From positions 1 through 25,663 of the forward strand of contig DASYFU010000175.1 in assembly GCA_036498225.1 (NCBI GenBank): a stretch of 25,663 nt of DNA. The letters are read 5' to 3'. Every line of letters begins with the position of its first letter. Position 1 is the first letter of the stretch. The notes below the pieces were generated by a model that saw only the letters and a list, made by a program, of their open reading frames with translations, made no database searches and was not told the DNA's origin. The DNA is from Gaiellaceae bacterium. GTDB taxonomy: Bacteria; Actinomycetota; Thermoleophilia; Gaiellales; Gaiellaceae. Shown piece by piece: positions 15,295 to 23,762 of the stretch. A program made the position numbers and the translations under genes.

Positions 15295-16173
15295 GTGCTC
15301 CCGCTCGAGAGCGTCCCGAACTTCTCCGAAGGCCGCGATACCGCGGTGATCGCCGAAATCGGTGATGCGCTCGCGCGCTACGCACGGCTGCTGGACGTCC
15401 ATGCGGACGCCGACCACAACCGGTCGGTCTTCACCATCGTCGGCGACGAGGCCGCGATCGTCGATGCGCTTCTCGCCGGCATTGCGGTCGCGCAGGAGCG
15501 CATCGACCTCCGCGGGCACGAGGGAGTGCATCCCCGCATCGGCGCCGCCGACGTCGTCCCCGTGATCGCGATACGTCCCGAGGATGCCGAGCTCGCACGG
15601 GAGACAGCTCGGATCGCCGCCGAGCGCATCGGCAACGAGCTCGAGCTCCCGGTCTTCCTGTACGGCGAGGTCGGCGACGGACGCGCGCCCGCGTTCTTCC
15701 GTCGCGGCGGGACGGACGAGCTGCAACGCCGCATCGACGAAGGCGAGCTTGCGCCGGACTTCGGCCCGCCGCGGCTCGATCCGGCAGCGGGGGGCGTCAT
15801 CGTCGGCGCGCGCCGGCCGCTCATCGCCTTCAACGTCAACCTCGCGCACGCCGACGTCGATGCGGCGCGGGAGATCGCCCGCGTCGTGCGCGAGCGCGAC
15901 GGCGGCTTTCCCGGCGTTCGCGCGCTCGGGCTCGAACTGCCTCAGGCGGGCCACGCGCAGATCAGCATGAACGTCGAGGACTGGGAAGCGGCGGCGCTGC
16001 ACGACATCGTCGCTGCGATCGAGCGCGAGGCGGCCGCGCGTGGCGTCGAGCTCGCGGGCGCCGAGCTCGTCGGGCTCATGCCGGCGGGTGCGGCCGCCGC
16101 CGCGGCCGGCGCGCTGTTGCGCATCCAGGGCTTCGACGCGTCACACGTTCTCGAGCTGCGCCTGCTCGAGTAG
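15295..16173 (+). CDS. ftcd: Glutamate formimidoyltransferase (stand-alone FT domain)
   Basis: LESVPNFSEGRD, DADHNRSVFT, GVHPRIGAADVVP, GARRPLIAFNVNL, QISMN. Confidence 0.93.
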   Translation: MLPLESVPNFSEGRDTAVIAEIGDALARYARLLDVHADADHNRSVFTIVGDEAAIVDALLAGIAVAQERIDLRGHEGVHPRIGAADVVPVIAIRPEDAELARETARIAAERIGNELELPVFLYGEVGDGRAPAFFRRGGTDELQRRIDEGELAPDFGPPRLDPAAGGVIVGARRPLIAFNVNLAHADVDAAREIARVVRERDGGFPGVRALGLELPQAGHAQISMNVEDWEAAALHDIVAAIEREAAARGVELAGAELVGLMPAGAAAAAAGALLRIQGFDASHVLELRLLE

Positions 16174-16842
16174 CGCGCGACCGACGACGGCGCCCTCGAG
16201 GCCGAGCCCGGCGAGCGCACCCAGGTCCCCCTTGCTGCGGACGCCGCCGGCCGCCAGGACGGGGCCTCCGAAGCGGCGCGCGACACGCCCCATCAGCACG
16301 AGGTCGGGACCGGCGAGCGTCCCGTCCCGGTCGATCGCCGTGCAGAGGAGCCGCGCGACGCCCGCGGCGACGCACCGGTCGACCGCGTCGTCGACGGAGA
16401 GCCCGCTGCCGTGCTCCCAGCCGCGGACGCGCACCTCGCCGTCGCGGACGTCGACGGCGACGACGAGCCGGTCGCCGAGCGCGTCGACGTACGCCTCCGG
16501 GCCTTGCTCGAACGCGGCCGTCCCCACGATGACGCGCGCAGCCCCGGCGCCGAGGAGCGCGTACGCGTCGGCCGGGCTGCGCACGCCGCCGCCGAGCTGG
16601 AGCGGAACAGGGTCGATCGCGGCTGCGAGGCTGCGCGTCAGCTCGATCGGGGCGCCGCCGTCCCGAGCGGCATGGAGGACGACGACGTGGAGCAGGGGAG
16701 GGCGCGCCCGGGCAAAGCGCCGTGCGAGCTCCACGGGATCGCCGGCTTCACGCGCAACCGCGTCGAAGTCGCCCTTCTCGAGCCTGACGGCCCGGCCGTC
16801 GAGGACGTCCACGGCGGGTATGAGTTGAAAGCCTTGCTGCAC
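16141..16842 (-). CDS. hisA: ProFAR isomerase HisA
   Basis: LIPAVDVLDGRAVRLEKG, LQLGGGVR, RVIVGTAA, VAVD, TAIDRDGTLAGPD, AAGGV, VVGRAL. Confidence 0.92.
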   Translation of the reverse strand: MQQGFQLIPAVDVLDGRAVRLEKGDFDAVAREAGDPVELARRFARARPPLLHVVVLHAARDGGAPIELTRSLAAAIDPVPLQLGGGVRSPADAYALLGAGAARVIVGTAAFEQGPEAYVDALGDRLVVAVDVRDGEVRVRGWEHGSGLSVDDAVDRCVAAGVARLLCTAIDRDGTLAGPDLVLMGRVARRFGGPVLAAGGVRSKGDLGALAGLGLEGAVVGRALLEQAQLENV

Positions 16843-16862
16843 CGTGTTACCATGCTAACACG
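16843..16862. promoter_or_regulatory. 20-bp palindrome: probable HisR operator overlapping divergent leaderless promoters
   Basis: CGTGTTACCATGCTAACACG, 18/20 self-complementary; fills the whole gap between the two start codons. Confidence 0.8.
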
Positions 16863-17156
16863 ATGGAGCCACGACATTGGCCGACAAAGGAACATCGAGA
16901 CCTCTTCGAGACGGTCGCCTCGCTCCGGACGAAGGAGGAGGCGCAGCGCTTCCTCCGGGATCTCTGCACGCGGGCGGAGCTGGACGCGATGGCGCACCGC
17001 TGGCAGGTGGCGCGGCTCCTGGACGAGGGTCTGCCGTACCTGGAGGTGGCGCGCAAGGCGCACGCCTCGACGACGACGGTGACGCGCGTCGCGCAGTGGC
17101 TGCGCCGCGGCGAGGGCGGGTACCGGCTGGCGCTCCAGCGGCGGCGAAAATCCTGA
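16863..17156 (+). CDS. TrpR-like YerC/YecD family regulator (probable HisR)
   Basis: FLRDLCTRAELDAMAHRWQVARLL...YLEVARKAHASTTTVTRVAQWLRRGEGGY, the YerC/YecD signature; first gene of the his operon. Confidence 0.9.
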   Translation: MEPRHWPTKEHRDLFETVASLRTKEEAQRFLRDLCTRAELDAMAHRWQVARLLDEGLPYLEVARKAHASTTTVTRVAQWLRRGEGGYRLALQRRRKS

Positions 17157-17983
17157 AGATCGCCGTCCCCTCGAAGGGCCGCCTGCGCGATCCCGCGATC
17201 GCGCTCCTCGAGGACGCCGGCCTCGGCCCGGAGACGCCCGGCGACCGCGCGCTCGCGTTCCCGTGCCGGAACGCGCCGGTCGAGGCGCTCCTTGTGCGCG
17301 CGGACGACATCCCGGAGTACGTGCAGGACGGCGTCGTCGACTGTGGCATCACCGGCCTCGACATCGTGCGCGAACGCGGCGCGAACGTCACCGAGCTGCA
17401 GACGCTCGGCTTCGGGGCCTGCACCCTCGAGGTCGCCGTCCAGGAGGAGTCGGACGTCGGCGCGCCGGACCAGCTCGACGGCGCGCGCATCGCGACGAGC
17501 TTCCCCCGCCTCGCCCGCGAGCTCATGCCGGTCTCGATCGAGCTCGTCGACGTGCACGGCTCGGTCGAGCTCGCCCCGCGCCTGGGCCTCGCCGACGCGA
17601 TCGTCGACCTCGTCTCGAGCGGGAGCACCTTGCGCACGAACGGGCTGCGTTCGATCGGCGTGCTGCTCGCCTCGGAGGCCGTTCTCATCGGGCCGCCCGA
17701 GCCGCGGGACGACGCGGTGCAGCTCGCGGGCGTGTTCCGGAGCGTCGTCGACGCGCGCGCGACGCGCTATCTGATGTTGAACGCGCACGAGGATTCGCTG
17801 GAGGCGATCTGCGCGCTCGTGCCCGGCTCGCGCGCGCCGAGCGTGCTGCCGCTGTCGGAGCCGGGGATGGTGGCCGTGCACAGCCTCGTTCCGGCCGCGG
17901 ACATCTGGCGCTTGCTGCCCGAGCTCGAGGCCGCGGGTGCGTCGTCGATTCTTCTCGTCCCCGTCGAGCGCATGCTCGGATGA
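17153..17983 (+). CDS. hisG: ATP phosphoribosyltransferase, long form (start probably CTG 17153; alternative GTG 17096)
   Basis: LKIAVPSKGRL, VRADDIPEYVQDGVVDCGITGLD, GSVELAPRLGLADAIVDLVSSGSTLRTNGL, plus C-terminal regulatory domain. Confidence 0.94.
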   Translation: MKIAVPSKGRLRDPAIALLEDAGLGPETPGDRALAFPCRNAPVEALLVRADDIPEYVQDGVVDCGITGLDIVRERGANVTELQTLGFGACTLEVAVQEESDVGAPDQLDGARIATSFPRLARELMPVSIELVDVHGSVELAPRLGLADAIVDLVSSGSTLRTNGLRSIGVLLASEAVLIGPPEPRDDAVQLAGVFRSVVDARATRYLMLNAHEDSLEAICALVPGSRAPSVLPLSEPGMVAVHSLVPAADIWRLLPELEAAGASSILLVPVERMLG

Positions 17984-18954
17984 CGATCGTCGAAGACGTG
18001 AAGGCGCGCGGCGAGGAGGCCGTGCGCGAATGGGCGCTGCAGCTCGACGGCGTCGAGCCCGCGCGCGCGGAGCCGGACGGCGAGCTGCCCGAGGAAGCCA
18101 TCCTTGCACTCGCCGATCGCGTGCGCCGCTGGCACGAGGCGCAGCGGCCGGCCGACGTGCGGCTCGAGGTCGAGCCGGGCGTGCAGCTCGAACGCCGGTG
18201 GGTGCCGCTCGACTCCGTCGGCGTGTACGTGCCGCGCGGTCTCGTCTCGACGCTCGTCATGTGCGCGGTGCCTGCGCAGGTCGCAGGCGTGCGCCGGATC
18301 GTCGTGTGCACGCCGCCCGACGGCGCGGGCCTCGTCGCCCGCGCCGCGGAGCTGCTCGGGATCGACGAGGTCTGGGCGCTCGGCGGCCCGCAGGCGATCG
18401 GATACCTCGCGTACGTCGCGCGCGTGGACAAGATCGTCGGTCCCGGCGGCCCGTACGTGAACGACGCGAAGCTCGAGGTCGCGCGCGACGTCGCGATCGA
18501 CCTTCCCGCTGGTCCGTCCGAGGTGGTCGTCGTCCTCGGCGCGGGCGGCGACCGCCGGCTCGCGGAGCTCGAGCTCGCCGCGCAGGCCGAGCACGGCCAC
18601 GAGGCGGTCTGCCGCATCGTGGCCACGCTCGAGGAGGCTGAGGCGCTCGCGCCCGAGCATCTTGTGCTCCTCGGCGATGCCGAAGCACTTGCGCCGCGGG
18701 TCCGCAACGCCGGCGCGGTGTTCGTGGGCGAGTGGTCGCCCGTTCCGAGCGGCGATCTCGGAACAGGCGCCAATCACGTTCTCCCCACGGGCGGCTGGGC
18801 GCGCTCGGTCGGCGGCCTCGGCCTCGAGACGTTCATGAAGCCGATCACGATCCAGCGGCTGACGCAGGAGGGGCTCGAGCGCGTGCGGCCGACGGTCGAG
18901 GCGCTCGCCGCCGTCGAGGGACTGCCTGCGCACGCGGCAGCGGTGCGGCGATGA
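17980..18954 (+). CDS. hisD: Histidinol dehydrogenase, shortened (324 aa)
   Basis: VKARG, SVGVYVP, GGPQAI, DKIVGPG, IDLPAGPSEV, QAEHG, APEHL, GD..GANHVLPT, AHAAAV. Confidence 0.92.
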   Translation: MTIVEDVKARGEEAVREWALQLDGVEPARAEPDGELPEEAILALADRVRRWHEAQRPADVRLEVEPGVQLERRWVPLDSVGVYVPRGLVSTLVMCAVPAQVAGVRRIVVCTPPDGAGLVARAAELLGIDEVWALGGPQAIGYLAYVARVDKIVGPGGPYVNDAKLEVARDVAIDLPAGPSEVVVVLGAGGDRRLAELELAAQAEHGHEAVCRIVATLEEAEALAPEHLVLLGDAEALAPRVRNAGAVFVGEWSPVPSGDLGTGANHVLPTGGWARSVGGLGLETFMKPITIQRLTQEGLERVRPTVEALAAVEGLPAHAAAVRR

Positions 18955-20462
18955 GAGCGCTCGGCGCTGGGTTCCAGATGTACGGCTGGGCGCCGTCGAC
19001 GGCGGAGCTCGCGCACCGCGCAGGTCTCGATCCGGTCGAGATCCTGCGCTTCGACGGCAACGTGCCGGCGCTGCCGCTCCCGACGTCACGGCCGGCGGCG
19101 ATCGCATCTGCGCTCGCGCGCGTGAACGAGTATCCGCACGGCGGGTATCCCGACATCCATGAGGCGATCGCCGGGTACGCCGGCGTCGAGCCCGAGAACG
19201 TCGTGCTCGGCGCAGGCGCCGACGACCTGATCATGCTCGTCGCGCGCGCCTACGCGGGCGCGGGGGACACCGTCTCCGTTCCCGAGTCGCCGACGTATCC
19301 GCTCTTCCGCATCGCCGCCCAGCTCGCCGGCGCCGACGTGGGCGACGACGAGCCCGTGTTGACGTTTGCGTGTCGGCCGGCGAACCCGACCGGTGCGCTC
19401 GAGGCGATTCCCTCGGCGCGGCCGCTCGCCGTCGACGAGGCGTACTTCGAGTACGCCGACGACCCAGGTGCGGTCGGCCTGATCGACGACGACGTGGTCG
19501 TCATCCGAACGTTCTCGAAGCTCTTCGCCCTCGCGGGCGCACGCATTGGCTACGCGCTCGCCTCGCGCGAGGTCGCCGCGGAGCTGAACGCACGGCAAGC
19601 TCCTGCGCAGGTTTCGACGCTGTCGGTCGCGCTCGCGCTCGCGGCGCTCGCGTCGCCACCCGATGTCCGGCCGGTGATCGAGGAGCGAGAGCGACTTGCG
19701 ACCGAGCTGCGCACGCTCGGGTACGAGCCCGTCGCCTCCCGCGCGAACTTCGTCTACGTCCCGGTGGACGATCCCGAGTCGGTCGGCGACCGGCTGCTCG
19801 CGGCCGGCTGCGTCGTCCGCGTGTTCGAGAGCGCCGTGCGTATCTCGGTACGCGACCGCGAGGACGACGACGTGCTGCTCGCCGCGCTCGCAGGCGAGCC
19901 GCCGTCGCAGGGGCGTCGGAGTCGTCACGTGCGCTCGACCGTCGAGACGACGCTCCGCGTACGGCTCACGCTGGACGGCGCCAGCCGCGTGCGCGTCGCG
20001 ACAGGCTCAGGGTTGTACGACCACTTCTTCGAGCAGCTCGCATTCCACGCCGGCTTCGACCTCGTGCTCGAGGGCAGCGGCGATCTCGAGACGGGGGACC
20101 ATCACACGGCAGAGGACGCGGCCATCGCGCTCGGCGAGGCGTTCGACCTGGCGCTCGGCGACCGCAAGGGAATCGCGCGCTACGGCGACGCGGTCGTCGT
20201 CATGGACGACGCCCGCGCGAGCGCGGCCGTCGACCTGGGCGGCCGGCGCCACACGAGCATCGTGCTCGAGCACGACCCCGGGCTCGCGAAGCACACGCTC
20301 ACGAGCTTCGCCGACAACGCACGCATCGCACTGCACGTCGAGGCGACCGGCGACGACCCGCATCACGTCGCCGAGGCGGCGTTCAAGGCGACGGGGCGCG
20401 CGCTGCGCGCCGCGATCCGGAGTGAGGGCGACGTGCTCCCGTCGACGAAGGGCGTGATGTGA
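18951..20462 (+). CDS. hisC: Fused histidinol-phosphate aminotransferase / imidazoleglycerol-phosphate dehydratase (HisC-HisB), 503 aa
   Basis: N-terminal DEAY, NPTG and RTFSKLFALAGARIGY (PLP Lys); C-terminal (from about 19914) DHHTAED, HHVAEAAFKA and PSTKG; no stop codon between the domains. Confidence 0.92.
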   Translation: MRALGAGFQMYGWAPSTAELAHRAGLDPVEILRFDGNVPALPLPTSRPAAIASALARVNEYPHGGYPDIHEAIAGYAGVEPENVVLGAGADDLIMLVARAYAGAGDTVSVPESPTYPLFRIAAQLAGADVGDDEPVLTFACRPANPTGALEAIPSARPLAVDEAYFEYADDPGAVGLIDDDVVVIRTFSKLFALAGARIGYALASREVAAELNARQAPAQVSTLSVALALAALASPPDVRPVIEERERLATELRTLGYEPVASRANFVYVPVDDPESVGDRLLAAGCVVRVFESAVRISVRDREDDDVLLAALAGEPPSQGRRSRHVRSTVETTLRVRLTLDGASRVRVATGSGLYDHFFEQLAFHAGFDLVLEGSGDLETGDHHTAEDAAIALGEAFDLALGDRKGIARYGDAVVVMDDARASAAVDLGGRRHTSIVLEHDPGLAKHTLTSFADNARIALHVEATGDDPHHVAEAAFKATGRALRAAIRSEGDVLPSTKGVM

Positions 20463-20992
20463 CGACGGTCGCGATCGCGCGCTACGGCGCCGGCAACGTC
20501 CGCTCGGTCGAGCTCGGCGTGCGCCGGCTCGGCGCTGAGGTGATCGACGACCTCGAGGCCGCCGATCTCGCGGTGCTGCCCGGAGTCGGCTCGGCGCGGT
20601 CGGCGATGGAGGGCCTGGGCGCGTCGGCAGACATCCTCCGCGCACGCCACGAGGATGGGCGAGCGATTCTCGGCATCTGCCTCGGCCTCCAGCTCGCGCT
20701 CGACGAGAGCGAGGAGGACGGCGGCGTCGTGGGGCTCGGGCTCGTGCCAGGCCGCGCGGTGCGCCTCGAGGCCGAACGCGTCCCGCGCATCGGCTGGGCG
20801 CACGTCGAGCCGGGCGGCGAGGCGTACTGGTTCGCGCACTCGTACGAAGCCGTGACCGAGTCGACCGTGGCCACGAGCGAGGGCCACGCCGCCGTCGTCG
20901 AGCACGGCTCGTTCGTCGGCGTGCAGTTCCATCCCGAGAAGAGCGGCGCTGCAGGCAGCCGCTTTCTGGAGCAATGCCTCTCCCGCGTCTGA
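20459..20992 (+). CDS. hisH: IGP synthase glutamine amidotransferase subunit
   Basis: [21 protein letters not shown] (catalytic Cys), PRIGW, FAHSY, QFHPEKS. Confidence 0.95.
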
Positions 20993-21708
20993 TCCCGTGC
21001 CTCGACGTCGCCGGCGGGCGCGTCGTCAAGGGCGTGCGCTTCCGTCAGCTGCGCGATGTCGGCGACCCCGTCGAGCTCGGCGCGGCGTACTCCGACGGCG
21101 GCGCGGACGAACTCGTCTTCCTCGACATCTCTGCGACGGTGACGTCGACTGCGGCCGCAGCTGCCGTCGCGGCCCAGGTCGCCGAGCACGTGACCATCCC
21201 GTTCACGTTCGGCGGAGGGATCCGCACGGTCGACGACGCAACGTCGCTGCTCGAGGCGGGCGCCGACAAGATCAGCGTGAACTCGGCGGCGCTCGCACGG
21301 CCAGACTTGATCGAGGAGCTTGCGCGTGCTCTCGGCAGCCAGGCCGTTGTCGTCGCCATCGACACCGAGGGCGGGCGCGTCCGCTCGCATGCGGCGACGC
21401 GCGACGCCGCGCGCGACACCGTCGAATGGGCGAAGGAGTGCGAACAGCGCGGTGCAGGCGAGCTGCTCGTCACGTCGATCGATCGCGACGGCACGCAGGA
21501 CGGGTACGACCTCGAACAGCTCGCCGCGCTGAGCGACGCCGTCTCGCTTCCGGTCATCGCGTCGGGCGGTGCCGGCAGCGCGCACCATGTAGCGGACGCG
21601 CTCGAGGTGTCGCAGGCCGCGCTCCTCGCGTCCATCCTGCACGAGGATCCGGCCCGGCTCGTCTCGCTGCGCACGGAGCTGAAGGAGCTGGGCGTATGCC
21701 TCCGCTGA
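20974..21708 (+). CDS. hisF: IGP synthase cyclase subunit
   Basis: [68 protein letters not shown]. Confidence 0.96.
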
Positions 21709-22238
21709 AGGCCGCGATCGTGCAGGACGCGGACGACGGCCGCGTGCTCATGCTCGCGTGGATGGACGCTGAGGCGGAGCGCCTGACGCGCGAGACCGGC
21801 GAGGCGTGGTTCTGGAGCCGCTCGCGCGAAAAGCTGTGGCGCAAGGGCGAGACGTCCGGGAACGTCCTCCACGTCGAGGAGATCCGCGACGACTGCGACG
21901 GTGACGCGCTTCTCCTGCGTGTGCATCCCGACGGCCCCGCGTGCCACACCGGCTCGCGCTCGTGCTTCGCGCCGGCGCTGTGGCGGACGATCTCCGAGCG
22001 GAAGGCCGAGCGGCCCGACGGCTCGTACGTCGTCTCGCTCCTCGACGCCGGAATCGCGCGCTGCGCGCAGAAGGTGGGGGAGGAGGCGGTCGAGACCGGG
22101 ATCGCCGCCGTTGCCGGCGACCGCGAAGGTCTCGTCGCGGAGGCGGCCGATCTCGTATTCCACCTGTATGTACTGCTGGCGGCTGCGGACGTCGACCTCT
22201 CGGAGGTCGAGGACGAGCTGGCGCGCCGAGCGAAGTAG
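21696..22238 (+). CDS. hisIE: Bifunctional PR-AMP cyclohydrolase / PR-ATP pyrophosphatase
   Basis: [35 protein letters not shown], then KVGEEAVE and EAADLVFH; SD GAAGGAG upstream of ATG 21696. Confidence 0.95.
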
Positions 22239-22241
22239 ATT
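22236..22241 (+). promoter_or_regulatory. Putative -10 (TAGATT) for leaderless hutH mRNA
   Basis: TANNNT-N6-GTG; the TAG is the hisIE stop codon. Confidence 0.6.
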
Positions 22242-22247
22242 CTCCGT

Positions 22248-23762
22248 GTGCCTCCGGTCGCGCTCACCGGCGACGACCTGACCGTCGCCGACGTCTGGGA
22301 CGTCGCCGTCGAACGACGGCCCACCGAGCTCACCGATGCCGCGCGCGCCAGGATGCGCGCCGCCCGCGAGGTCGTCGAGCGCGCAGCGCACGGCGCCCGT
22401 GAGCACACGTACGGCGTCAACACGGGCTTCGGCCGCTTCGTCTCGCGCTCGATTCCCGAGGAGCTGACCGAGGAGTTGCAGCTGCGCCTCCTGCGCTCGC
22501 ACGCGTGCGGCGTGGGCGAGCCGTATCCGGACGAGATCGTGCGCGCAGCGATGCTCCTTCGTGCGAACACGCTCGCGAAGGGGAACTCCGGTGCGCGCGT
22601 CGAGACCGTCGAGCTCGTGCTCGCGTGCCTCGACCGCGGCGTCGTTCCGGTCGTGCCTGCGCGCGGAAGCGTCGGGGCATCCGGCGATCTCGCACCGCTC
22701 GCGCATCTCGCGCTTCCGCTCGTCGGCGAGGGCGAGGCGTTTATCGACGGTGAGCGCGTCCCGGGCCTCGAAGCGCTGACCCGCGTCGGGCTCGAGCCCG
22801 TGCAACTCGAGGCAAAGGAAGGGCTGTCGCTCATCAACGGGACGCAGTTCATGGCCGCGTACTGCGCGCTCGGTCTCGTGCGGGCGCGGCGGCTCGCGCA
22901 TGCCGCCGACGTCGCGTGCGCGCAGTCGCTCGAGGCACTGCAGGGATCGCGCACGTCGTTCCTGCCGGAGATCCACGCGCTCCGGCCTCTGCGCGGGCAG
23001 ACGGCGTCCGCCGCGCATGTGCTCGAGTTGCTCGACGGCTCCGCGATCATCGAATCGCACCGCTGGTGTGACAAGGTGCAGGACGCGTACTCGCTCCGTT
23101 GCGCGCCGCAGGTGCATGGCGCGTCGCGCGACCTGCTCGACTACATCGACTACACGATCTCGGTCGAGCTGAACGCCGCGACCGACAATCCGCTCGTCCT
23201 CGTCGAGGAAGACGCGCTCGTCTCGAACGGCAACTTCCACGGCCAGCCGCTCGCATTCGCGCTCGACGTCATGGCGATGGCCGTCGCCGAGCTCGCGTCG
23301 ATCTCGGAGCGTCGTGTCGAGCGCCTCGTGAACCCGAACCTGTCCGACGGCCTGCCCGCGTTCCTCACGAGCGAGGGCGGGCTCAACAGCGGGTTCATGA
23401 TTCCCCAGTACGTGGCCGCATCGCTCGTCTCCGAGAACAAGGTGCTCGCGCATCCGGCGTCGGTGGATTCGATCCCGACGAGCGCCGGGCAGGAGGATCA
23501 CGTGTCGATGGGCAACGCAGCTGGGCTGAAGGTGTGGCAGGTGCTCGCGAACTGCGAGAGCGCGCTCGCCATCGAGCTGCTCGCCGGCGCGCAGGGCGTC
23601 GAGTTCCTCGCGCCGCTCGAGCCCGGAGTCGGCGTGCGCGCTGCGCGTGCGTTCGTCCGGGAGCTCTCGCCGCGACTGAAGGACGACCGCTCTCTCGCTC
23701 CCGACATCGAAGCAGTGGCTGCGGCGATTCGCAACGGCTCGCTCGAGAAGGCCGTCGCGTGA
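22248..23762 (+). CDS. hutH: Histidine ammonia-lyase
   Basis: [32 protein letters not shown] (MIO-forming ASG), [33 protein letters not shown]. Confidence 0.97.

What the first reader, a model, noticed from the sequence alone, without database searches (positions are those of the whole stretch)
16840..16865. The entire hisA/hisR intergenic region is one 20-bp palindrome: operator and bidirectional leaderless promoter
Seen: between the hisA GTG (16842, minus) and the regulator ATG (16863, plus) lie exactly 20 bp, CGTGTTACCATGCTAACACG, self-complementary at 18/20 positions. By symmetry each strand has a -10-like hexamer at the same distance from its start codon (CATGCT or CATGGT, N6 then start; alternatively TACCAT or TAGCAT, N9 then start), and there is no room for an SD. 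Known: HisR regulators of the YerC/YecD TrpR-like family have been linked to 20-bp palindromes with a TTA-N6-TAA core, and this site has that core. Inference: one repressor dimer on one site could switch off both arms of histidine biosynthesis, and any -35 elements would lie inside the opposite coding sequences. This is a near-minimal divergent control element.
Basis: partly seen in the sequence, partly recalled or inferred. Interest (0 to 1): 0.8.

Follow-up and report, generated by a model that had tools for sequence, protein, structure and literature searches.

The report
HisR operator inside a two-way promoter
The 20 bases between hisA and the histidine operon of this soil actinobacterium (Gaiellaceae) are the conserved binding site of the known histidine repressor HisR, laid over two back-to-back promoters; it is a tidy new example of a known switch, not a new kind.

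Summary
hisA (GTG 16842, minus) and a YerC/TrpR-like gene (ATG 16863, plus) are separated by exactly 20 bp, self-complementary at 18/20, and neither gene has an alternative start.

The regulator is a HisR-family protein. The site is a lineage variant (GTTA-N6-TAAC) of the published HisR motif (TTTA-N6-TAAA).

The palindrome is kept in 102 distinct hisA/hisR loci across Gaiellales. In 34 of 37 close relatives each start codon sits 10 or 7 nt from the palindrome centre, although the N-termini vary in length.

About a quarter of long ORFs in this genome carry TANNNT 6-9 nt before the start codon. TACCAT and TAGCAT (N9) fit that pattern better than CATGCT and CATGGT.

Spacers of 15-25 bp occur in 28 of 210 divergent gene pairs here, so the compact layout is the organism's habit. 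Only the his spacer is a near-perfect palindrome.

hisG overlaps the hisR stop codon (CTGA), so hisR heads the operon.

No transcription start or binding data exist. Metatranscriptome contigs of relatives were inconclusive.

The scan has already found this arrangement on other DNA (at least 7 genomes). Verdict: new member of a known kind, modest interest.

The parts
16141..16842 (-). hisA (HisA/PriA-type isomerase), 233 aa, GTG start
   Evidence: PF00977 E 3.5e-56. The start is forced by an in-frame TAG at 16857-16855. In 23 of 35 close relatives the start is at the same offset and the N-terminus has the same length.
16843..16862 (.). 20-bp palindrome, the predicted HisR operator; it is the whole intergenic spacer
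   Evidence: 18/20 self-complementary. Unique in the assembly. Conserved in 102 distinct loci with consensus C[G/A]TGTTAnC[A/G]TGCTAACA[C/T]G. Matches the HisR TTA-N6-TAA core.
16845..16853 (+). Candidate extended -10 (TGT-TACCAT) of the hisR-operon promoter; 9 nt to ATG 16863. A start 7 nt after the hexamer would be A16860, giving a 3-nt leader.
   Evidence: Fits TANNNT. The N9 class holds 42 ORFs genome-wide. Relatives L048 and L058 place the ATG 6 nt after the same hexamer. The promoter scan pairs it with TTGAAA at 17 nt.
16852..16860 (-). Candidate extended -10 (TGT-TAGCAT) of the hisA promoter; 9 nt to GTG 16842
   Evidence: hisA appears in the genome-wide TANNNT-N9 list. It is one of only 6 of 249 such genes with TGN before the hexamer. 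Relatives such as L009 and L010 have the hisA ATG 6 nt after TAGCAT.
16849..16856 (.). Alternative -10 pair: CATGCT (+, 16851-16856) and CATGGT (-, 16854-16849), each 6 nt from its start codon
   Evidence: They keep A at -11 and T at -7 but not T at -12. CANNNT at N6 is enriched only about 12-fold, against about 70-fold for TANNNT at N9.
16825..16830 (+). -35-like TTGAAA inside hisA codons 5-6 (Phe-Gln)
   Evidence: TTGAAA-17-TACCAT was one of 2 hits in 10.5 kb, with 0.2 expected. In relatives it moves with the hisA codons rather than with the -10, so its role is doubtful.
16863..17156 (+). hisR (YerC/YecD, TrpR fold), 97 aa, first cistron of the operon
   Evidence: PF01371 and TIGR02531 above cut-off; TrpR equivalog below cut-off. 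PDB 3frw, 3g1c and 3kor match at E 2e-15 to 3e-13 over the full length.
17153..17983 (+). hisG. Its conserved N-terminus (KIAVPSKGRL) begins right after a CTG that overlaps the hisR stop (CTGA), pointing to translational coupling.
   Evidence: All 24 relatives have NTGA at this junction (ATGA, GTGA, TTGA or CTGA). Pfam HisG is recorded.
17980..22238 (+). hisD, hisC-hisB fusion, hisH, hisF and hisIE, with overlapping or abutting frames
   Evidence: Gene calls and Pfam families of the identical locus L001. Window coordinate = L001 coordinate + 6862.

Best explanation
The 20-bp spacer is the operator of HisR, a histidine-dependent TrpR-fold repressor. It is superimposed on two back-to-back promoters of the leaderless type that this Gaiellaceae genome uses for about a quarter of its genes.

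On the top strand TGT-TACCAT drives hisR-hisG-hisD-hisCB-hisH-hisF-hisIE. On the bottom strand TGT-TAGCAT drives hisA. The two -10 boxes overlap by 2 bp (16852-16853). Transcription is predicted to start at, or 3 nt before, each start codon, and no Shine-Dalgarno sequence is present.

A single HisR dimer carrying histidine would cover both -10 boxes and both start points. It would therefore shut off hisA, the rest of the pathway and its own gene together. hisG is then translated by coupling to the hisR stop codon (CTGA).

Shown here: gene identities, forced start codons, the palindrome, its conservation and uniqueness, and the genome-wide promoter geometry.

Inferred: HisR binding, histidine as corepressor (by homology with R. 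gnavus HisR), the start points, and repression of both arms.
For: Family: PF01371 and TIGR02531 above cut-off, and full-length matches to solved HisR-type proteins, including the E. eligens protein named as HisR in the literature.

Motif: the published HisR consensus is a 20-bp palindrome with TTTA-N6-TAAA, and binding requires histidine. Relatives in genus g5 carry TTTTAGCATGCTAAAA, an exact match to that core.

Conservation: 102 distinct sites, with 14 positions kept in at least 94 of the 102, down to 47% HisR identity. The operator is kept even where start codons have moved 15-50 nt away, so it is more than a promoter.

Specificity: an exact TGTTA-N6-TAACA was found in 17 of 61 family genomes, and 14 of those 17 sites lie at hisA/hisR. 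The reversed control pattern hit 4 of 61.

Leaderless geometry: TANNNT ends 6, 7, 8 or 9 nt before the start in 130, 44, 33 and 42 of 1016 ORFs, with no -35 signal. In 34 of 37 close relatives both starts lie 10 or 7 nt from the centre. Of 36 scorable HisR starts, 33 lie at offset 10 while the HisR N-terminus ranges from -7 to +10 codons.

Other points: other 15-25-bp divergent spacers in this genome are at most 12/17 to 12/23 self-complementary. NTGA coupling of hisR and hisG in all relatives makes hisR the first cistron. No T-box or His leader is present.
Against: No transcription start map and no binding assay exist for any Gaiellales HisR.

The canonical distance from the -10 to the start is 6-7 nt, but TACCAT and TAGCAT sit 9 nt from the start codons. 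Either a 3-nt leader or a stretched discriminator must be assumed.

Contigs from RNA libraries of relatives run across the palindrome (X24 record 12, X26 record 27). One ends about 25 nt upstream of the hisR ATG (X23 record 4). This may be DNA carry-over or an assembly break at the edge of conservation, but it would also fit start points inside the opposite gene.

The outer TGT/ACA of the palindrome could be read as extended -10 elements, so part of the conservation may be due to the promoters.

Some of the acidic helix-2 residues reported as conserved in HisR are changed here (FLRD instead of FFED).
Confidence: 0.72

Rival explanations
1. The palindrome is only a symmetric bidirectional promoter, made of two overlapping extended -10 elements (TGTTACCAT and TGTTAGCAT). 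It is conserved for RNA polymerase, and no repressor binds it. The YerC-like protein acts elsewhere or not on DNA.
For: Both strands read TGN-TANNNT. In M. tuberculosis the extended -10 goes with the strongest promoters. Symmetric -10 regions that drive divergent transcription are widespread. This genome has many 17-, 20- and 23-bp divergent spacers.
Against: Genome-wide, only TAnnnT is conserved. TGN precedes it in 6 of 249 cases, and other short spacers are not palindromes. Here 14 positions are kept in at least 94 of 102 sites, which is typical of an operator. The site is kept where the starts have moved away. It matches the HisR consensus and always sits beside hisR.
Confidence: 0.12
2. 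Both genes are transcribed from promoters inside the opposite coding sequence. The palindrome then acts as an RNA hairpin abutting each start codon, giving translational control or a processing site.
For: As RNA the region folds at -8.5 kcal/mol (plus strand, z -1.3) and -12.5 kcal/mol (minus strand, z -2.3). Metatranscriptome contigs of relatives bridge the spacer.
Against: With no Shine-Dalgarno sequence, such leaders would have no way to recruit ribosomes. The fold z-scores are weak. Stem positions are invariant rather than covarying. The genome-wide pattern favours starts at the codon. The contigs may be DNA and cannot show RNA ends. No Rfam family matches.
Confidence: 0.08
3. The regulator binds the site but senses something other than histidine (for example PRPP, ATP, AICAR or charged tRNA), or it activates rather than represses.
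For: Histidine-contact residues of HisR are unknown. Some helix-2 acidic residues differ here. Paralogues such as HisR2 have changed targets.
Against: The site covers both -10 boxes, a position that can only occlude RNA polymerase. The only tested HisR needs histidine. All target genes here are histidine biosynthesis genes.
Confidence: 0.08

Closest known systems
HisR (YerC) histidine repressor regulon, TrpR family (Leyn 2013; Ashniev et al. 2022, PMC9413887)
   Same: A protein under 100 aa that matches PF01371 and TIGR02531. A 20-bp palindromic operator with a TTA-N6-TAA core. The targets are the his operon and hisR itself. [quoted passage not shown]
   Different: The lineage: Gaiellales (Thermoleophilia) was not among the 22 Actinobacteria studied (Coriobacteriales and Eggerthellales), where hisR is never clustered with his genes. 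The half-site is GTGTTA rather than cacTTTA. hisA is split off and divergent. The operator is the whole intergenic region and coincides with both promoters. Binding has not been tested.
Bidirectional promoters with overlapping -10 elements (Warman et al., bioRxiv 10.1101/2020.01.31.928960; NAR 2026, PMC12825309), for example acrR/acrAB, which AcrR represses in both directions
   Same: Two divergent start points a few turns apart share one pseudo-symmetric -10 region, and one auto-repressor controls both directions.
   Different: The preferred spacing there is 18 bp (also 10 and 23). Here the predicted spacing is 15 or 21 bp, and the hexamers overlap by 2 bp rather than 5. Both transcripts would be leaderless, so the start codons themselves flank the promoter.
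Leaderless divergent pairs in Mycobacterium tuberculosis, for example prpD and its regulator Rv1129c (Cortes et al. 2013, PMC3898074)
   Same: A TANNNT -10 without a -35, leaderless mRNAs, and closely juxtaposed divergent promoters that include a regulator and its target.
   Different: Those starts were mapped experimentally; here they are inferred from sequence statistics. The regulator family and the pathway also differ.
E. coli TrpR and the trp operator
   Same: The same fold, an amino-acid corepressor, and a palindromic operator that overlaps the -10.
   Different: The window protein fails the TrpR equivalog model (28.2 bits against a cut-off of 67.25). The TrpR motif TGTAcTnGTnnACnAgTACA is different. 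The neighbouring genes are his, not trp.

Membership tests
HisR (YerC/YecD) regulators | Small TrpR-fold protein that matches PF01371 and the YerC/YecD model but not the TrpR equivalog | tested here: met
   PF01371 81.9 bits; TIGR02531 72.6 bits (cut-off 42.2); TIGR01321 TrpR 28.2 bits (cut-off 67.25).
HisR (YerC/YecD) regulators | Conserved HTH with Tyr in place of TrpR Arg69 and an AST(A/T)T(I/V)(S/T)RV recognition helix; similarity to solved HisR-type proteins | tested here: met
   The sequence Y59...ASTTTVTRV aligns over its full length to 3frw, 3g1c (E. eligens HisR) and 3kor, E 1.8e-15 to 3.2e-13. These residues are invariant in 22 Gaiellales proteins.
HisR (YerC/YecD) regulators | 20-bp palindromic operator with a TTTA-N6-TAAA core upstream of his genes and/or hisR | tested here: met
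   The window has GTTA-N6-TAAC within a 20-bp palindrome. Genus g5 relatives have TTTA-N6-TAAA. The site is conserved in 102 loci.
HisR (YerC/YecD) regulators | Regulon made of histidine biosynthesis or transport genes | tested here: met
   The site lies between hisA and hisR-hisGD(CB)HF(IE). There is one site per genome, at this locus, in 14 of 17 site-bearing family genomes.
HisR (YerC/YecD) regulators | Histidine-dependent binding to the operator | not testable with these tools
   Shown only for R. gnavus HisR. It needs purified protein.
Leaderless mRNA | A -10 (TANNNT) placed so that transcription starts at the start codon, with no Shine-Dalgarno sequence | tested here: met
   TACCAT and TAGCAT lie 9 nt before the starts, and the spacer has no SD-like 4-mer. 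Genome-wide enrichment at 6-9 nt. Relatives have the start 6 nt after the same hexamers.
Leaderless mRNA | Mapped 5' end at the start codon (5' UTR of about 0-5 nt) | tested here: inconclusive
   No RNA run holds this organism. Contigs from relatives' RNA libraries cross the spacer but cannot show RNA ends and may be DNA.
Bidirectional promoter (shared -10 symmetry) | Divergent start points 7-25 bp apart around overlapping -10 elements on opposite strands | tested here: inconclusive
   In sequence, the two TANNNT hexamers overlap by 2 bp, and the predicted starts are 15 bp (16845/16860) or 21 bp (16842/16863) apart. The start points are not mapped. The preferred 18-bp spacing is not met.
RNA-based his control (T-box, His leader attenuator) | A leader RNA that matches an Rfam family upstream of his genes | tested here: not met
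   No Rfam match at gathering score in the window, and none at E up to 1 in 16500-17300. There is no room for a leader.

The most novel reading that the evidence does not exclude
The operator, both extended -10 boxes and both translation starts form one co-evolving module of about 26 bp. RNA polymerase can sit on it in only one orientation at a time. hisA and the hisR-led operon would therefore compete for a single polymerase site as well as sharing one repressor.

The repressor gene is also the obligatory translational gateway of the pathway. Ribosomes would start on a leaderless hisR and reach hisG only by re-initiating at a non-canonical CTG that overlaps the hisR stop codon. This would tie repressor and enzyme output together.
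Probability: 0.2. Interest if true: 0.55.

Novelty: new member of a known kind. Interest (0 to 1): 0.33.

Why it matters
It extends the HisR histidine repressor to Gaiellales, an abundant and almost uncultured soil actinobacterial order. The 2022 survey reported HisR in Actinobacteria only for Coriobacteriales and Eggerthellales.

It is also a clean natural case in which an operator, two promoters and two translation starts share 20-26 bp. That makes it a convenient template for a minimal two-way histidine-responsive switch in high-GC hosts.

It does not reveal a new mechanism. The same arrangement has already been reported by this scan on other genomes.

Tried and rejected
RNA evidence. Neither search found an RNA run holding this DNA. 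Laying four soil and sediment metatranscriptome contig sets at 80% likeness gave only relatives' contigs. Some bridge the spacer and no start points are definable. I treat this as inconclusive.

A second HisR site in this genome. The only 1-mismatch match (C336:2519, at the 3' end of purF and before purM) is about what chance gives, roughly 0.5 expected. I rejected it as a regulon member.

A wider regulon in relatives. The genome G062 has three perfect TGTTACCATGGTAACA copies away from his genes, while its own hisA/hisR site has one mismatch. Two of the copies share longer flanks, so they look like a repeat. This remains unexplained and was not used.

The -35 element. TTGAAA at 17 nt is found in the window, but in relatives it travels with the hisA Phe-Gln/Ala codons, and the genome shows no -35 signal. 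I do not rely on it.

CATGCT/CATGGT as the -10 boxes. They remain possible but are less likely than TACCAT/TAGCAT.

RNA leader families. None were found.

Not run: structure prediction, complex prediction and the large protein searches. Sequence matches to solved HisR proteins already settle the family, and the complex tool cannot take DNA.

Full report
**Observation**

The window is a complete 25,663-bp contig (C175) of a 2.32-Mb, 455-contig, 70% GC metagenome-assembled genome.

At 16840-16865 the sequence reads CAC, then CGTGTTACCATGCTAACACG, then ATG. The minus-strand ORF 16141-16842 starts with GTG and encodes a HisA-type protein (PF00977, E 3.5e-56). The plus-strand ORF 16863-17156 encodes a 97-aa Trp_repressor-fold protein. 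It passes the YerC/YecD model TIGR02531 (72.6 bits, cut-off 42.2) and fails the TrpR equivalog (28.2 bits, cut-off 67.25).

Both starts are forced. An in-frame TAG lies at 16857-16855 upstream of hisA. An in-frame TGA lies at 16821-16823 upstream of the regulator, with no other start codon in between. The 20 bp between the two starts are self-complementary at 18/20, and the only non-pair is C16850/C16855.

Palindromes of this quality are not rare in such GC-rich DNA: 8 occur in the window against 7.1 expected. One with at least 10 A/T bases is rare, at 0.04 expected. The core GTGTTA-N6-TAACAC is unique in both the window and the assembly.

**Context**

Gene calls on an identical locus from another assembly give hisA, then the 20-bp spacer, then hisR-hisG-hisD-hisC/hisB fusion-hisH-hisF-hisIE. 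These are followed by hutH-hutU, and a formiminotransferase gene converges on hisA.

Record titles of the closest genomes name Gaiellaceae and Gaiellales (Thermoleophilia, Actinomycetota), from soil.

The hisR stop overlaps the first codon of the conserved HisG N-terminus as CTGA. All 24 relatives inspected have NTGA there (ATGA, GTGA, TTGA or CTGA). hisR is therefore the first, translationally coupled cistron of the operon.

**What the palindrome is**

The HisR literature (Ashniev et al. 2022, PMC9413887) describes YerC-type TrpR-family repressors. Their operators are 20-bp palindromes with consensus cacTTTAnnnnnnTAAAgtg. R. gnavus HisR binds DNA only with histidine.

The window protein aligns over its full length to the E. 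eligens HisR structure 3G1C and to two related structures (E 2e-15 to 3e-13). It shares the Tyr and the AST-T-V-T-RV recognition helix.

The window site is a variant of the motif (GTTA-N6-TAAC). Relatives in one family carry TTTTAGCATGCTAAAA, the exact published core.

I collected hisR loci from 24 relatives, 80 named genomes and 14 pattern hits, which gave 102 distinct sites between divergent hisA and hisR. The consensus is C[G/A]TGTTAnC[A/G]TGCTAACA[C/T]G. Fourteen positions are kept in at least 94 of the 102 sites, and HisR identity in the aligned set falls to 47%.

In a sample of 61 family genomes, TGTTA-N6-TAACA occurs in 17, almost always once. In 14 of those 17 it lies at hisA/hisR. The reversed control pattern hits 4 genomes.

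The operator is kept where the start codons lie 15-50 nt away. It is therefore under constraint beyond that of a promoter.

**Promoters and leaderless expression**

I took 1016 long, high-GC3 ORFs of the assembly and looked for a TANNNT hexamer before the first start codon. The hexamer ends 6 nt before the start in 130 ORFs, 7 nt in 44, 8 nt in 33 and 9 nt in 42. Together that is 249, or 25%. At internal in-frame ATG/GTG codons the frequency is 0.03-0.15%.

There is no -35 signal, and TGN precedes the hexamer in only 6 of the 249. This is the leaderless pattern known from other Actinobacteria (Cortes 2013, PMC3898074; Zheng 2011, PMC3160421, listed but not read).

TACCAT (top strand) and TAGCAT (bottom strand) fit TANNNT with 9 nt to each start codon. 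CATGCT and CATGGT, with 6 nt, lack the first T and belong to a much less enriched class.

Relatives argue for the former pair. Some have the hisR ATG (L048, L058) or the hisA ATG (L009, L010 and others) exactly 6 nt after the same hexamers, one codon closer.

Among 37 loci with at least 75% HisR identity, the offsets of the two starts from the palindrome centre (hisA, hisR) are (10,10) in 28, (7,10) in 4 and (10,7) in 2. Of the 36 of these loci in which a HisR start could be scored, 33 have it at offset 10, while the HisR N-terminus varies from -7 to +10 codons in 11 length classes. This anchoring is what a start point fixed by the promoter predicts.

The predicted start points are A16860 and the bottom-strand base at 16845 (3-nt leaders), or the start codons themselves.

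**How unusual is the compaction?**

It is not unusual for this organism. Of 210 divergent neighbour pairs, 28 have spacers of 15-25 bp, with peaks at 17, 20 and 23 bp.

The his spacer differs in being a near-perfect palindrome. The others reach at most 12/17 to 12/23 self-complementary positions. Closely juxtaposed divergent leaderless promoters and bidirectional promoters with overlapping -10 elements repressed in both directions by one auto-repressor (acrR/acrAB) are already known.

**Mechanism proposed**

A histidine-loaded HisR dimer on 16843-16862 covers both -10 boxes and both start points. It would repress hisA and the hisR-led operon together, including its own gene.

When histidine is low, RNA polymerase binds the shared region in one or the other orientation. 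hisR is then translated from a leaderless or 3-nt-leader mRNA, and hisG follows by coupling.

Binding, the effector and the start points are inferences.

**Evidence against, and rivals**

No RNA run holds this organism. Contigs from RNA libraries of relatives cross the palindrome, and one ends about 25 nt upstream of the hisR ATG. They may be DNA carry-over or assembly breaks at the edge of conservation, but they keep open start points inside the opposite gene.

As RNA the palindrome folds only moderately (-8.5 and -12.5 kcal/mol; z -1.3 and -2.3). No Rfam family matches.

A pure-promoter reading (two extended -10 elements) is possible for part of the conservation. It does not explain the invariance of the site, its uniqueness, its match to the HisR motif, or its persistence where starts have moved.

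**Comparison and novelty**

This is a member of the HisR system in a lineage not covered by the 2022 survey. That survey covered only Coriobacteriales and Eggerthellales among Actinobacteria, where hisR is never clustered with his genes. Here it is combined with this genome's usual compact bidirectional leaderless promoter.

Earlier notes of this scan report the same arrangement in at least seven other genomes, from Gaiellales and Chloroflexota, with the same conclusion.

Verdict: real, well supported by comparison, ordinary in mechanism, and a new member of a known kind.

Noticed in passing
window 17150-17190: hisG has no canonical start codon at its conserved N-terminus. The frame begins at a CTG that overlaps the hisR stop (CTGA). 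Eight loci in the genus, the window's among them, share CTGA, while other relatives have ATGA, GTGA or TTGA. The public gene call instead starts 30 nt downstream, at another CTG in this sequence.
   Followed up: partly
window 22236-22250: The hisIE stop codon TAG is the first half of TAGATT, which lies 6 nt before the hutH GTG. That is the genome's commonest leaderless promoter geometry, so hutH-hutU may have their own promoter rather than depend on read-through from the his operon.
   Followed up: partly
whole assembly G000: About 25% of long ORFs carry TANNNT (mostly TAGnnT) 6-9 nt before the start codon. Only 21% have an SD-like 4-mer. Divergent gene pairs cluster at spacers of 17, 20 and 23 bp.
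   Followed up: yes
L116:1501-1516, L129:2001-2016, L130:2001-2016 (genome G062): Three perfect TGTTACCATGGTAACA palindromes lie away from his genes, near argG, a Wzt-type ABC transporter gene and a biotin carboxylase gene. Two of them share longer flanks. The same genome's hisA/hisR site has one mismatch. They could be extra HisR targets, another regulator's sites or a repeat.
   Followed up: partly
G000 contig C336 2516-2535 (L131): A one-mismatch copy of the site (CGTGTAAAAGTCGTAACACC) overlaps the purF stop codon, upstream of an unknown ORF and purM. About 0.5 such matches are expected by chance.
   Followed up: partly
window 16859-17983: The hisG reading frame stays open across the whole of hisR in another frame (ORF 16877-17983, TTG). 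Length-based gene callers can therefore swallow the 97-aa regulator; my own greedy caller did.
   Followed up: no
L018 (genome G014): The hisR homologue of this relative is interrupted (one TGA, split into two matches). It may be a pseudogene or an assembly error. The palindrome and the hisA start are intact.
   Followed up: no
L019-L022 (genus g5): The operator (TTTTAGCATGCTAAAA) sits about 8 bp further from the hisR ATG (offset 18 against 10). TAAAAT-N9-ATG takes the place of TACCAT-N9-ATG. In L019 hisA has a 16-nt leader with a GGGGGAAG Shine-Dalgarno-like run, so it is not leaderless in that genome; the hisA side of L020-L022 was not worked out.
   Followed up: partly
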